The position numbers and the translations under genes are program-made. A stretch of DNA of 41,772 nucleotides from an uncultured bacterium (GTDB lineage: Bacteria; JAHJDO01), in contig CAZMXO010000001.1 of NCBI GenBank assembly GCA_964570265.1, positions 1-41,772 of the forward strand, read 5' to 3'. Below are positions 36,013 to 37,071 of this stretch, piece by piece. Position 1 is the first letter of the stretch, and each line of letters begins with the position of its first letter. Below the pieces are notes generated by a model. The model saw nothing but the letters and a program-made list of their open reading frames with translations. It searched no databases and was not told the DNA's origin.

Positions 36013-37071
36013 TTATGCCATACTCTCAGAAAGGAAATACTGGTGAATCAGATAGAAATTGAGCGGACTCAGTGGCTGGTACATAATTACATAATCCCAG
36101 AGATTATCCCCTTTCCGTGTTTTTCGGTAGACTGTGCCTTTGCAAAATGCCCGTTTTGTTTTATCTGATCGCTTGCCAAGTCCACATATCTCTACTCCCG
36201 ATTCTACATCTGCTTTCAGCTTTATAACTCCTGGAAAATATTTGTCCAGATTCAAGTTGCTGCGCAAGAGAAATGCTTCAGGATTGACATCAATTGCTTT
36301 GCCCACATGCTTAAAATTGCCAGATTCATCCTTAAGCTGCAAATAAACCGAGACTTGTTTTTGAAAGACGCGTTCATGCATTCGTTTCTCTTTGTATCGT
36401 CCGAGGAACTTTTGCAAGACCAATTTGCGAAAGATAATGAGCATGCCGAGAGAGATAATGGATCGTATCACTAAGAATGCCGTAAGAGCAAGAGCAGAGA
36501 TGTTCCAAAAGAAATCCTCTTTCTTTTTAAGCAAGTGATTATCGATATGAGAACGGATGGCTTTAGGTGTTGAATGAGGGGTAAAAATCTGTGAAATCCC
36601 GATAAGAGCGGGGTGCACAATAAAACGTTGATCATAACCCGGGATATCTTTGCATAGATTCTCGTAAATCTCCGGACGGACAGGACGTGGTCCCACCATA
36701 TCCATATCACGCTTCAATACATTCCACAGCTGCGGTAATTCGTCCAGTCTTGTATCTCGCAGGAACTTTCCTATAGGGGTAACAAGTTCTCTGCGACTAC
36801 CCAATAGTTTTCCCTGTAGCTGTGCATCTGCATCTCTGACCAAGGTGCGAAACTTGTACATTCGATATTTCTTTTTATTAATTCCCAATCGCGTACCCCA
36901 GTAAAAGATGGGACGTCCCTGACTGTACCACAAGACCAGACCCACTAAAACAAAAACGGGGAGACTAATAATGCCCAGTAATGCTGCTACTAGGACATTA
37001 AGAAGTTCATTTGCCCAGCGCGCTGGGCGGCGATAACCGCCTTTGTTAACAAATATACTTTCTAATTTCAT
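36013..37071 (-). CDS. Priming polyprenyl-phosphate sugar-phosphate transferase (bacterial sugar transferase family) fused to a C-terminal PilZ-like domain
   Basis: 352 aa. Residues ~20-175 form a small PGT core (KFRTL, LDELPQLWNVLKRDMDMVGPRP). Residues ~190-215 are hydrophobic. Residues ~226-345 are PilZ-like: KRMHERV (RxxxR, nt 36370-36384), then 26 residues later GKAIDVNPEAFLL (nt 36274-36291) at the DxSxxG position. Confidence 0.7.
   Translation of the reverse strand: MKLESIFVNKGGYRRPARWANELLNVLVAALLGIISLPVFVLVGLVLWYSQGRPIFYWGTRLGINKKKYRMYKFRTLVRDADAQLQGKLLGSRRELVTPIGKFLRDTRLDELPQLWNVLKRDMDMVGPRPVRPEIYENLCKDIPGYDQRFIVHPALIGISQIFTPHSTPKAIRSHIDNHLLKKKEDFFWNISALALTAFLVIRSIISLGMLIIFRKLVLQKFLGRYKEKRMHERVFQKQVSVYLQLKDESGNFKHVGKAIDVNPEAFLLRSNLNLDKYFPGVIKLKADVESGVEICGLGKRSDKTKRAFCKGTVYRKTRKGDNLWDYVIMYQPLSPLNFYLIHQYFLSESMA

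What the first reader, a model, noticed from the sequence alone, without database searches (positions are those of the whole stretch)
36013..37071. Priming phosphoglycosyl transferase fused to a PilZ-like domain: candidate c-di-GMP gate on the first committed step of a Wzx/Wzy-type EPS pathway
The N-terminal ~175 residues are a small bacterial sugar transferase (KFRTL, LDELPQLWNVLKRDMDMVGPRP). After a hydrophobic segment (aa ~190-215) comes a ~120-aa domain. It carries an intact PilZ N-terminal switch motif, KRMHERV (RxxxR, nt 36370-36384). Twenty-six residues later comes GKAIDVNPEAFLLRSNLNLDKYFPGVIKLKADV, matching the spacing and beta-strand pattern of the second PilZ motif. However, that motif reads DVNPEA (nt 36274-36291) instead of DxSxxG. 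The gene lies 24 bp downstream of a REC-GAF-GGDEF cyclase and near a REC-HD-GYP phosphodiesterase. Well-studied c-di-GMP control of EPS acts on synthase-type systems (the BcsA PilZ domain, Alg44 PilZ, PelD, PgaCD). I do not know of a characterised priming transferase carrying its own PilZ domain, so this may be an undescribed regulatory architecture. There are two caveats. The degenerate second motif may weaken or abolish binding. The intervening hydrophobic segment must be re-entrant, or peripheral, for the PilZ domain to stay cytoplasmic.
Basis: partly seen in the sequence, partly recalled or inferred. Interest (0 to 1): 0.75.

Follow-up and report, generated by a model that had tools for sequence, protein, structure and literature searches.

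The report
Sugar-priming enzyme with hidden PilZ-like domain
The enzyme that starts assembly of a bacterial slime polysaccharide carries a previously unannotated domain that looks like a PilZ receptor for the signalling molecule c-di-GMP, so the pathway's first step may be switched on directly by that signal, though binding is untested.

Summary
ORF 36013-37071(-) encodes a 352-aa small monotopic phosphoglycosyl transferase (Bac_transf, E=1.5e-39) followed by a ~127-aa C-terminal domain that Pfam and NCBIfam do not recognise.

That domain defines a family of at least 84 clusters (50% identity). Every aligned full-length member is fused to the transferase. It occurs in MAGs labelled as six phylum-level groups, usually inside a conserved orf206-Wza-Wzz-PGT-Wzy-GT2-GT4 cassette.

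- **Fold:** an alignment-based AlphaFold model (pLDDT 88) is a beta-barrel with a C-terminal helix. Its six best PDB matches are all PilZ proteins, at marginal E-values.
- **Motifs:** profile comparison puts the near-invariant (K/R)RxxxR on MapZ's RxxxR, and the conserved [D/N]-h-N-x-x-A on [D/N]hSxxG.
- **Pfam:** one divergent member just reaches the PilZ cutoff.
- **Topology:** the "hydrophobic segment" is the transferase's own C-terminal interfacial helix, so the domain should be cytoplasmic.

c-di-GMP binding is not shown. Ser to Asn and Gly to Ala are family-wide changes, and the adjacent GGDEF and HD-GYP genes appear only in this lineage.

Verdict: a real, recurrent architecture that I did not find described, and a new variant of PilZ-gated polysaccharide synthesis. 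Its function is inferred.

The parts
36013..37071 (-). Whole gene: 352-aa small monotopic phosphoglycosyl transferase with a C-terminal PilZ-like domain (stop codon at 36013-36015)
   Evidence: ORF list and sequence. An identical protein sits on metagenome contigs with the same neighbours.
36466..37005 (-). Bac_transf catalytic domain (Pfam match, aa 23-202)
   Evidence: PF02397 at E=1.5e-39, profile positions 3-178 of 179. PglC 8g1n at E=8e-21 and WbaP 8t53 aligned to aa 14-203.
36922..37014 (-). N-terminal re-entrant membrane helix (aa 20-50). It contains Pro38, which aligns with PglC Pro24.
   Evidence: Hydropathy, alignment to PglC, and an uncharged run of 19 or more residues in 91% of relatives.
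36739..36744 (-). Catalytic Asp110-Glu111 dyad within LDELPQL
   Evidence: Invariant in 58 relatives and aligned to the PglC DE dyad.
36424..36516 (-). Hydrophobic linker helix (aa 186-216). This is the C-terminal interfacial helix of the transferase domain extended into the linker, not a membrane span.
   Evidence: The Bac_transf profile and the WbaP alignment run to aa 202-203. The family's median uncharged run is 12 residues and only 9% reach 19. The hydrophobic moment is 0.43 against 0.27 for the re-entrant helix, and both flanks are rich in K/R.
36016..36396 (-). PilZ-like beta-barrel domain (aa 226-352). Strands are at aa 240-245, 253-262, 266-271, 281-289, 304-321 and 324-333, and a helix is at aa 336-346.
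   Evidence: AlphaFold2 on a 71-sequence alignment gave pLDDT 87.9 and pTM 0.77. The top 6 Foldseek hits are PilZ proteins. hhalign to MapZ gave P=6.6e-4.
36370..36384 (-). RxxxR motif (R230-M-H-E-R234), preceded by K229, in the loop before strand 1
   Evidence: R230 in 66/67 and R234 in 68/68 relatives; position 229 is K or R in 52/71. It aligns to MapZ R9-R13 and to Alg44 RQFAR.
36274..36291 (-). Variant second motif D261-V-N263-P-E-A266, at the end of strand 2 and the start of strand 3. It matches the family pattern [D/N]-h-N-x-x-A.
   Evidence: Census: D59/N11, hydrophobic 71/71, N64/S5, A55 of 71. It aligns to MapZ D35-x-S37-x-x-G40 and to Alg44 DLSAGG.
36163..36204 (-). Variable loop between strands 4 and 5 (aa 290-303), with lower model confidence. 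It is K/R-rich in most relatives.
   Evidence: The pLDDT block is about 69, and the alignment shows a length-variable K/R-rich stretch.
36034..36066 (-). C-terminal helix of the barrel (aa 336-346) within the most conserved stretch, YVxxYxPxSPLNxYxxHQYFLxxS
   Evidence: Model. Y331, Y340, Y345, L347 and S350 are conserved in at least 90% of relatives.
37096..38472 (-). REC-GAF-GGDEF diguanylate cyclase gene, 24 bp upstream. GGEEF and an RKSD I-site are present.
   Evidence: Pfam GGDEF at E=5e-45, plus Response_reg and GAF. Motifs read from the translation.
38490..39485 (-). REC-HD-GYP phosphodiesterase gene
   Evidence: Pfam Response_reg plus HD_5 and HD. HD and GYP read from the translation.
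39491..41738 (-). Two histidine kinase genes (GAF-PAS-HisKA-HATPase at 39491-41053; HisKA-HATPase at 41046-41738)
   Evidence: Pfam.
32322..36008 (-). Downstream conserved partners: Wzy-type polymerase (34722-36008), 400-aa GT2 (33523-34725) and GT4 (32322-33530)
   Evidence: Pfam. The same gene order follows the PGT in most related loci.
15871..19601 (+). Conserved partners that sit directly upstream of the PGT in other genomes: orf206, Wza (16895-17998) and Wzz (18015-19601)
   Evidence: Pfam and synteny in 13 of the 18 genome loci L008-L025.

Best explanation
The gene encodes a small monotopic phosphoglycosyl transferase, the enzyme that puts the first sugar-phosphate on undecaprenyl phosphate for a Wzx/Wzy-type exopolysaccharide. 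Its catalytic domain continues, through its own C-terminal membrane-interface helix, into a cytoplasmic, strongly basic, divergent PilZ-type beta-barrel.

The most likely mechanism is as follows.
1. The domain is a nucleotide second-messenger receptor, most probably for c-di-GMP.
2. It binds the ligand with the conserved (K/R)RxxxR loop and the re-tooled [D/N]-h-N-x-x-A turn.
3. Binding re-positions the barrel and its very conserved C-terminal helix against the catalytic domain at the membrane surface.
4. That switches the first committed, undecaprenyl-phosphate-consuming step on, by analogy with the PilZ domain of cellulose synthase BcsA.

In this organism the ligand would be made and removed locally by the co-directional REC-GAF-GGDEF cyclase and REC-HD-GYP phosphodiesterase, under the two upstream histidine kinases.

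Shown here: the architecture, the family, the predicted fold, the motif register and conservation, and the neighbourhood. Inferred: cytoplasmic location, ligand identity, and the direction and mechanism of regulation.
For: - **Transferase:** Bac_transf at E=1.5e-39 with an intact DE dyad and GPRP.
- **Family:** an exhaustive search found 84 clusters with the domain (19 at E<=1e-10). All 58 aligned full-length members carry Bac_transf.
- **Fold:** the AlphaFold2 model has pLDDT 87.9 and pTM 0.77, with a 6-7 strand barrel plus a C-terminal helix. The top six Foldseek hits are all PilZ proteins, at probability 1.00 and E from 3e-3 to 1.5e-2. The highest TM-score among the PilZ matches is 0.60, to c-di-GMP-bound MrkH (rank 9). 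TM normalised to MapZ is 0.52.
- **Motif register:** hhalign of the family profile against the MapZ family gave P=6.6e-4 and aligned RxxxR to RxxxR and DINxEA to DLSxxG. None of 300 column shuffles reached that score (mean 11.3, sd 2.4, max 20.2, against 26.2). Alg44 aligned in the same register at P=0.0019.
- **Pfam:** PilZ is the only family hit by more than one member. P0085 scores 22.8 bits against a cutoff of 22.5 across profile positions 2-100 of 102.
- **Conservation:** both Arg are near-invariant, the 'h' residue is hydrophobic in 71/71, and five members carry the canonical Ser. The 'h' residue and the role of the C-terminal helix as an interaction surface are described for canonical PilZ (bioRxiv 10.1101/814665).
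- **Topology:** the linker is too short and too charged to span the membrane. The domain's net charge is +10 in the window protein and +9.5 on average in the family.
- **Neighbourhood:** an intact GGEEF cyclase lies 24 bp upstream and an HD-GYP enzyme next to it.
Against: - The window protein's own C-terminus has no PilZ hit at E<=10 in Pfam or NCBIfam.
- A family profile searched against PDB sequences found no PilZ chain, only weak fatty-acid-binding-protein matches at E=0.04.
- No Foldseek match reached E<=1e-3, and trypsin-like and FMN split barrels follow closely.
- hhalign probability is only 27%, and YcgR aligned out of register.
- Ser and Gly of [D/N]hSxxG, both part of the c-di-GMP-binding motif, are replaced family-wide by Asn and Ala.
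- No GGDEF, EAL, HD-GYP or REC gene recurs next to family members in 16 other loci. The adjacency is specific to this lineage.
- No full-length model was obtained. The single-sequence model had pLDDT 52, so domain packing is unknown.
Confidence: 0.5

Rival explanations
1. The domain has the PilZ fold but does not bind a nucleotide. It would be a fixed structural or protein-docking module that tethers the transferase to Wzy, Wzz, the next glycosyltransferase or the membrane. The conserved arginines and the basic loop would contact anionic lipid head groups, undecaprenyl phosphate or a partner protein.
For: - The Ser and Gly of the second motif are replaced family-wide.
- The domain is very basic and has a K/R-rich variable loop.
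- The strongest conservation is in the C-terminal helix region, which serves as an interaction surface in PilZ proteins.
- The tight co-occurrence is with Wza, Wzz, Wzy and GT2 rather than with c-di-GMP enzymes.
- PilZ-related domains that do not bind c-di-GMP are known.
Against: - Known non-binding PilZ-related domains have lost the binding motifs. Here both Arg are kept in at least 98% of members, together with the D/N and 'h' positions.
- According to the same review, PilZ domains in fusion proteins invariably retain binding.
Confidence: 0.25
2. The domain is a receptor for a different small anionic ligand: another cyclic dinucleotide (3'3'-cGAMP, c-di-AMP), pGpG, (p)ppGpp or a nucleotide sugar. 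The Asn/Ala re-tooling would be the specificity switch.
For: - [D/N]hNxxA is fixed rather than decayed (N in 64/71, A in 55/71), with a conserved acidic residue before the Ala. This suggests selection for an altered pocket.
- There is no conserved association with GGDEF, EAL or HD-GYP genes outside one lineage.
Against: - Five members have the canonical Ser within otherwise the same motif, which implies functional interchangeability.
- In the window the gene sits directly behind a c-di-GMP cyclase and phosphodiesterase pair.
- No case of a PilZ domain with a different natural ligand turned up in the papers I read here, though I did not search for one specifically.
Confidence: 0.15
3. The C-terminal domain is not PilZ-related. 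It would be an unrelated small beta-barrel (for example lipocalin- or fatty-acid-binding-protein-like, holding the polyprenyl lipid) or a periplasmic domain placed beyond a true transmembrane helix.
For: - The profile search of PDB sequences gave only fatty-acid-binding proteins, at E=0.04 to 2 over about 50 residues.
- The window's linker reaches a Kyte-Doolittle 19-residue average of 2.3.
- Foldseek E-values for PilZ are marginal.
Against: - No fatty-acid-binding protein appears among the 50 best structural matches, whereas PilZ proteins take ranks 1-6.
- Both motifs align in register with significant profile scores, and one member passes the Pfam PilZ cutoff.
- Across the family the linker is not span-like, and the flanks and the domain are strongly positive, which argues against export.
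Confidence: 0.05

Closest known systems
BcsA cellulose synthase (GT2 catalytic domain with a C-terminal PilZ domain)
   Same: A PilZ-type barrel is fused C-terminally to a membrane-bound polysaccharide-synthesis enzyme, and an RxxxR loop precedes the barrel. The C-terminal helix is available to pack on the catalytic domain, as described for BcsA. The proposed logic is the same: the second messenger gates catalysis post-translationally.
   Different: BcsA is a processive synthase in a synthase-dependent pathway and has a canonical [D/N]hSxxG motif that Pfam detects. Here the enzyme is a non-processive monotopic phosphoglycosyl transferase at the first step of a Wzx/Wzy pathway, the second motif is [D/N]hNxxA, and Pfam does not detect the domain. 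Binding is not shown.
Single-domain and fused canonical PilZ receptors (MapZ/PA4608, Alg44 PilZ, YcgR, MrkH, MotI)
   Same: They are the best structural matches. The RxxxR and second-motif positions are in register with MapZ and Alg44. The 'h' residue and the C-terminal helix are conserved.
   Different: Sequence identity is 8-16%, Asn replaces Ser and Ala replaces Gly, and a long basic loop lies between strands 4 and 5. The C-terminal stretch (SPLNxYxxHQYFLxxS) is unusually conserved. The fusion partner is new.
Bifunctional monotopic PGTs (Bi-PGTs): small monoPGT cores fused to extra domains
   Same: This is a PglC-like catalytic core with an additional domain at the C-terminus. That class is recognised, and regulatory fusions including receiver domains have been reported (PMC10942596; PMC12802240).
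   Different: The papers I could read do not name a PilZ or PilZ-like partner. Because the domain is invisible to Pfam, a Pfam-based survey would have listed these proteins as a PGT with an unannotated tail.
Post-translational control of early steps in Wzx/Wzy-type pathways: EpsW-EpsZ (Myxococcus), CapB-CapM (S. aureus), c-di-GMP-HfsJ (Caulobacter holdfast)
   Same: Regulation acts on the initiating PGT (EpsZ, CapM) or on an early glycosyltransferase that c-di-GMP activates directly (HfsJ) (PMC12802240; PMC9980756).
   Different: Those systems use a separate response regulator, a tyrosine kinase, or c-di-GMP binding to a glycosyltransferase. None has a receptor domain built into the PGT.
NfrB (E. 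coli GT2 synthase reported as locally c-di-GMP-controlled)
   Same: It is another polysaccharide enzyme under local c-di-GMP control (PMC8669469, listed). From my own knowledge, it carries a built-in MshEN c-di-GMP-binding domain and is paired with a dedicated cyclase.
   Different: The receptor fold differs (MshEN, from my own knowledge), and it is a synthase-type enzyme rather than a PGT.

Membership tests
Monotopic phosphoglycosyl transferase (Bac_transf, PF02397; small PglC-like class) | Match to the Bac_transf profile above the curated cutoff | tested here: met
   135.9 bits against a cutoff of 27, E=1.5e-39, profile positions 3-178 of 179.
Monotopic phosphoglycosyl transferase (Bac_transf, PF02397; small PglC-like class) | Asp-Glu catalytic dyad and the GPRP segment | tested here: met
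   D110-E111 in LDELPQL and G127-P-R-P130 align to PglC. D110, E111, G127, P128 and R129 are invariant in 58 relatives, and P130 is conserved in at least 90%.
Monotopic phosphoglycosyl transferase (Bac_transf, PF02397; small PglC-like class) | Single N-terminal re-entrant membrane helix with a helix-breaking Pro, and no N-terminal four-helix bundle or DUF | tested here: met
   There is one hydrophobic stretch at aa 20-50. Pro38 aligns with PglC Pro24, while the Ser lies two residues before the Pro rather than one. The protein begins 20 residues before this helix. Re-entrant geometry itself was not modelled.
Monotopic phosphoglycosyl transferase (Bac_transf, PF02397; small PglC-like class) | Transfer of a sugar-1-phosphate to undecaprenyl phosphate, and the identity of the sugar | not testable with these tools
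   All NCBIfam equivalog models score below their cutoffs, so the substrate cannot be assigned.
PilZ domain (PF07238), canonical c-di-GMP receptor | Match to the Pfam PilZ profile above the gathering score | tested here: not met
   The window domain gives no hit at E<=10. Within its family, P0085 reaches 22.8 bits against 22.5 and P0025 reaches 12.5 bits, both across the whole profile. PilZ is the only family hit by more than one member.
PilZ domain (PF07238), canonical c-di-GMP receptor | Six-stranded antiparallel beta-barrel preceded by a long loop and followed by a C-terminal alpha-helix | tested here: met
   The predicted model (pLDDT 87.9) has a loop, 6-7 strands and a helix. The top six PDB structural matches are PilZ proteins, with TM 0.45-0.60. 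This rests on a prediction, not an experimental structure.
PilZ domain (PF07238), canonical c-di-GMP receptor | RxxxR motif in the N-terminal loop | tested here: met
   K229-R230-M-H-E-R234. Both Arg are kept in at least 98% of 71 relatives and align to the RxxxR of MapZ and Alg44.
PilZ domain (PF07238), canonical c-di-GMP receptor | [D/N]hSxxG motif at the strand 2-strand 3 turn | tested here: not met
   The D and 'h' positions are kept, but Ser is Asn (64/71; Ser in 5) and Gly is Ala (55/71; Gly in 1). The position and register are correct.
PilZ domain (PF07238), canonical c-di-GMP receptor | Binds c-di-GMP | not testable with these tools
   This needs DRaCALA, ITC or MST on purified protein.
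XrtA/PEP-CTERM-associated exopolysaccharide locus | Locus genes match the curated PEP-CTERM-system models above cutoff, and an exosortase is present | tested here: not met
   pepcterm_ATPase, pepcterm_export, pepcterm_ChnLen, PEP_O_lig_1, pepcterm_femAB and stp2 are the best or among the best NCBIfam hits, but all fall far below their cutoffs. No ORF of 150 aa or more in the window gave an exosortase hit in the Pfam scans.

The most novel reading that the evidence does not exclude
A widespread PilZ-class receptor domain that databases do not detect, with a re-tooled ligand pocket ([D/N]hNxxA in place of [D/N]hSxxG), is built into the initiating phosphoglycosyl transferase of a conserved Wzx/Wzy exopolysaccharide cassette. 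It occurs in Planctomycetota, Verrucomicrobiota, Lentisphaerota, Acidobacteriota, Nitrospirota and Desulfobacterota-type (Thermodesulfobacteriota) MAGs. It would let c-di-GMP, or a related nucleotide with altered specificity, gate directly the step that commits undecaprenyl phosphate. That would be the first second-messenger receptor intrinsic to a PGT and a new sequence class of ligand-binding PilZ.
Probability: 0.45. Interest if true: 0.8.

Novelty: new variant of a known kind. Interest (0 to 1): 0.62.

Why it matters
Post-translational control by c-di-GMP is well worked out for synthase-type polysaccharide systems such as cellulose, alginate and Pel. For Wzx/Wzy pathways it is called incompletely understood (PMC12802240). 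The initiating transferase is the logical control point, because it commits the scarce undecaprenyl-phosphate carrier.

A receptor domain fused to that enzyme would make the question directly testable with one protein: measure binding, then activity with and without ligand.

It would also extend the sequence definition of ligand-binding PilZ domains. Current Pfam and NCBIfam profiles leave the C-terminal domain unannotated in nearly all members scanned, so censuses of c-di-GMP receptors in PVC bacteria, Nitrospirota and Acidobacteriota probably undercount them.

If the domain binds nothing, it is still an unannotated, conserved accessory domain of a defined exopolysaccharide cassette.

Tried and rejected
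- **Direct profile scans:** Pfam and NCBIfam scans of the window's C-terminal 136 aa at E<=10 gave nothing.
- **Word-indexed homologue search:** the domain, and then the 49-sequence profile, each returned only one 81%-identical partial protein. The exhaustive search was needed to find the family.
- **Family profile against PDB sequences:** only fatty-acid-binding proteins came up, at E>=0.04 over about 50 residues. I rejected them because none appears in the structural search and they miss both motifs.
- **Single-sequence AlphaFold of the full protein:** unusable (pLDDT 52).
- **Genome scan with the 49-sequence alignment:** A six-sequence alignment worked.
- **hhalign to YcgR:** aligned out of register, so it does not count as support.
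- **Neighbourhood test for c-di-GMP enzymes:** phmmer with the window's GGDEF, HD-GYP and REC domains against the 22 other loci fetched (L004-L025) found only a GGDEF fragment about 9 kb away in L022. A Pfam scan of 92 neighbouring ORFs from 16 loci found no recurrent signalling family. This is a negative result.
- **Transmembrane reading of aa 186-216:** considered because the window's segment is hydrophobic (KD 2.3), and rejected on family-wide features.
- **Terminator between the cyclase gene and the PGT gene:** one weak hairpin at 37120-37140 lies inside the cyclase coding region, and the total count equals the shuffle expectation, so it is uninformative.
- **Spurious hits:** the 1340-aa and 1272-aa proteins (P0019, P0034) are not family members. 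P0019 is an internally repetitive, unrelated protein. P0034 was not inspected and was left out of the alignments on length alone.
- **Literature:** O'Toole et al. 2021 (PNAS) and the PglC structure paper could not be read.
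Full report
**1. The observation**

The ORF at 36013-37071 on the minus strand is real. It is 352 aa, starts with ATG and has an AGGAG about 8 nt upstream. Pfam Bac_transf matches aa 23-202 at E=1.5e-39 and covers essentially the whole profile. The closest solved structures by sequence are the monotopic phosphoglycosyl transferases PglC (E=8e-21) and WbaP.

The catalytic Asp110-Glu111 dyad and the GPRP segment are present and are invariant or nearly so in relatives. RxxxR is aa 230-234 (nt 36370-36384) and DVNPEA is aa 261-266 (nt 36274-36291), with 26 residues between them.

The gene starts 24 bp after a REC-GAF-GGDEF gene that has GGEEF and an RKSD I-site. Upstream of that are a REC-HD-GYP gene and two histidine kinase genes. 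Downstream are Wzy, GT2, GT4, UDP-glucose dehydrogenase and further glycosyltransferase genes. All are co-directional and tightly spaced. Wza, Wzz and a Wzx flippase are encoded on the other strand.

**2. The C-terminal domain is a family, not an accident**

The last ~136 residues match nothing in Pfam or NCBIfam even at E<=10. The word-indexed protein search found only one close relative.

An exhaustive phmmer search of 1.84 billion cluster representatives found 84 proteins at E<=1e-3, 19 of them at E<=1e-10. Most are about 350 aa with the match at the C-terminus. All 58 full-length members I aligned carry Bac_transf. One member (P0052) has two tandem copies of the domain.

A scan of one genome per species found 18 loci, all in metagenome-assembled genomes apart from Candidatus Magnetominusculus xianensis strain HCH-1, an uncultured Nitrospirota organism. 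The labels are Victivallales/Lentisphaerae, Verrucomicrobiota, Planctomycetota, Acidobacteriota, Nitrospirota and Thermodesulfobacteriota/Desulfobulbaceae.

In most of these loci the gene sits in one conserved cassette: orf206-Wza-Wzz-PGT-Wzy-GT2(400 aa)-GT4, often with an alginate-lyase-like gene nearby. In the window the same genes are split between the two strands.

**3. What the domain is**

- **Predicted fold.** AlphaFold2 on a 71-sequence alignment gave a confident model (pLDDT 87.9, pTM 0.77). It has a flexible loop, strands at aa 240-245, 253-262, 266-271, 281-289, 304-321 and 324-333, and a helix at aa 336-346.
- **Structural matches.** Foldseek against the PDB ranked only PilZ proteins in places 1-6: MapZ, PP4397 (twice), MrkH and MotI (twice). 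Probability was 1.00 and E ran from 3e-3 to 1.5e-2. The highest TM-score among the PilZ matches was 0.60, to the c-di-GMP complex of MrkH at rank 9, and the TM-score normalised to MapZ was 0.52. Generic trypsin-like and FMN split barrels followed. These E-values are marginal on their own.
- **Profile comparison.** hhalign between the family and 34 MapZ orthologues gave P=6.6e-4. It aligned EKRxxxR with MapZ's ERRRFQR and LvDINeEA with LhDlSLkG, so both c-di-GMP motifs are in register. I had verified the MapZ query residue by residue against PDB 5xly. None of 300 column-shuffled MapZ alignments reached the real score (26.2, against mean 11.3, sd 2.4 and max 20.2).
- **Other PilZ references.** Alg44, verified against 4rt0, aligned in the same register at P=0.0019. 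YcgR did not align in register.
- **Pfam on family members.** PilZ is the only family hit by more than one member. The divergent member P0085 scores 22.8 bits against the 22.5-bit gathering score over profile positions 2-100 of 102.

I conclude that the domain is a divergent homologue of PilZ. My confidence in that is about 0.85.

**4. The motifs**

In 71 relatives, R230 is kept in 66 of 67 and R234 in 68 of 68 sequences with a residue there. The preceding residue is K or R in 52.

| Position in second motif | Residues in 71 relatives |
|---|---|
| 261 | D 59, N 11 |
| 262 ('h') | I, M, V or L in all 71 |
| 263 | N 64, S 5 |
| 266 | A 55, G 1 |

The second motif is therefore not a decayed DxSxxG in this one protein. 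It is a fixed family variant, [D/N]-h-N-x-x-A, in the correct structural place at the end of strand 2 and the start of strand 3.

The 'h' residue is highlighted as conserved in canonical PilZ domains. The same review notes that PilZ-related domains which cannot bind c-di-GMP have lost the motifs, and that PilZ domains in fusion proteins retain binding (bioRxiv 10.1101/814665). The occasional Ser in place of Asn suggests the two are functionally interchangeable here.

The most conserved part of the domain is the last strand plus the helix, YVxxYxPxSPLNxYxxHQYFLxxS. In PilZ proteins the C-terminal helix is the partner-contact surface, and in BcsA it packs on the glycosyltransferase domain.

**5. 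Topology**

The Bac_transf profile and the WbaP alignment extend to aa 202-203, so this is the transferase's own C-terminal helix continued into the linker.

| Feature | Linker (aa 186-216) | N-terminal re-entrant helix |
|---|---|---|
| Longest uncharged run, family median | 12 residues | 25 residues |
| Members with a run of 19 or more | 9% | 91% |
| Hydrophobic moment | 0.43 | 0.27 |

Both flanks of the linker are K/R-rich (4.5 and 6.6 K/R on average). The domain has a mean net charge of +9.5, and +10 in the window protein. The window's own linker is more hydrophobic than average (16-residue run, KD 2.3), but it has Arg203 in the middle.

I infer an interfacial helix and a cytoplasmic domain. 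This is an inference, because no full-length model was obtained; the single-sequence attempt was unusable.

**6. Most likely mechanism**

The enzyme is a PglC-like priming transferase whose activity is controlled by its built-in PilZ-like receptor. The ligand, most probably c-di-GMP, would be clamped between the RxxxR loop and the Asn/Ala turn. That would change how the barrel and its conserved helix sit on the catalytic domain at the membrane surface, and so open or close the first committed step.

In this organism the adjacent GGEEF cyclase and HD-GYP phosphodiesterase, each with a receiver domain, together with the two kinases, would supply a local, signal-dependent pool.

Shown: the architecture, the family, the predicted fold, the motif register and conservation, and the neighbourhood. 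Inferred: ligand identity, cytoplasmic placement, and the direction and mechanism of control.

**7. Evidence against, and rival explanations**

The c-di-GMP enzymes are adjacent only in the window's own lineage (L001, L002). phmmer with the window's GGDEF, HD-GYP and REC domains found only one distant GGDEF fragment in the 22 other loci fetched (L004-L025). A Pfam scan of 92 neighbouring ORFs from 16 loci found no recurrent signalling domain.

The Ser-to-Asn and Gly-to-Ala changes touch two residues of the c-di-GMP-binding motif.

The rivals are:
- a non-binding docking or membrane-contact module (0.25);
- a receptor with altered nucleotide specificity (0.15);
- an unrelated or periplasmic barrel (0.05).

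**8. Comparison with what is known**

The closest working analogue is BcsA, a glycosyltransferase with a C-terminal PilZ domain. The differences are the enzyme class (a non-processive monotopic PGT in a Wzx/Wzy pathway), the variant second motif and invisibility to Pfam.

The protein belongs to the recognised class of monoPGTs with extra fused domains, for which regulatory fusions such as receiver domains have been reported (PMC10942596; PMC12802240). None of the papers I could read names a PilZ partner.

Regulation of early Wzx/Wzy steps is known by other means:
- EpsW acting on the PGT EpsZ;
- CapB1 phosphorylating CapM;
- c-di-GMP binding the glycosyltransferase HfsJ in Caulobacter (PMC9980756).

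Direct c-di-GMP control of such pathways therefore has precedent. A receptor built into the PGT does not.

**9. Verdict**

This is a real, recurrent architecture that I did not find described. It is best classed as a new variant of a known kind: PilZ-type gating of polysaccharide enzymes. Homology to PilZ is well supported by converging but individually modest evidence. Ligand binding and gating are plausible but untested. Interest is 0.62.

Noticed in passing
window 14795-36008, both strands: The exopolysaccharide locus gives its best or near-best NCBIfam hits to the XrtA/PEP-CTERM-associated gene set: pepcterm_ATPase at E=3e-53, pepcterm_export, pepcterm_ChnLen, PEP_O_lig_1, pepcterm_femAB, stp2, and EpsB_2 for the PGT itself. 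All fall far below the curated cutoffs, and the Pfam scans of ORFs of 150 aa or more gave no exosortase hit. It may be a distant relative of that system.
   Followed up: partly
window 15871-16491 (+): orf206 has no Pfam hit (E<=1e-5) or NCBIfam hit. Its N-terminal half is low-complexity and K/E/S-rich, and it has a P-loop-like EGKTT near the C-terminus. A homologue sits immediately upstream of Wza in 13 of the 18 genome loci, and the homologue in L006 has weak ParA/CbiA hits. It could be a truncated tyrosine-kinase-like partner.
   Followed up: partly
P0052 (504 aa): One family member carries two tandem copies of the PilZ-like domain after the transferase. Each copy has RxxxR and a D/S-[IL]-N-x-x-[AS] turn. 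Tandem duplication is a known route of PilZ evolution.
   Followed up: no
P0001 and L008: The closest relative (81% identity in the domain) is labelled 'Candidatus Pacearchaeota archaeon' in NCBI. The same gene cassette occurs in a MAG labelled only 'bacterium CSMAG_1337', and the window has Tol-Pal and arginine-biosynthesis genes typical of a diderm bacterium. The archaeal label is probably a binning error.
   Followed up: partly
window 19668-20753 and 20527-21492 (+): The alginate-lyase-like ORF and the following methyltransferase ORF overlap by 227 bp as listed. The GTG start of the methyltransferase is probably too far upstream, since its Pfam match begins at aa 120-135.
   Followed up: no
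window 37120-37140 (-): A 9-pair hairpin followed by a weak T-rich tail lies inside the last ~15 codons of the cyclase gene, just upstream of the PGT start. The region's count of terminator-like sites is no higher than in shuffles (9 against 8.2), so it may mean nothing.
   Followed up: no
window 19668-20753 (+); L006, L007, L014, L024, L025: An alginate-lyase-like protein (Pfam E=6e-9 in the window) is strongly conserved with the cassette (phmmer E down to 1e-134) across phyla. This suggests a fixed role, such as polymer trimming or modification, in this exopolysaccharide system.
   Followed up: no
tool behaviour: The word-indexed search of 5.8 billion proteins returned a single relative for both the sequence and the 49-sequence profile. 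The exhaustive search found 84 clusters. This family is nearly invisible to k-mer prefiltering.
   Followed up: yes
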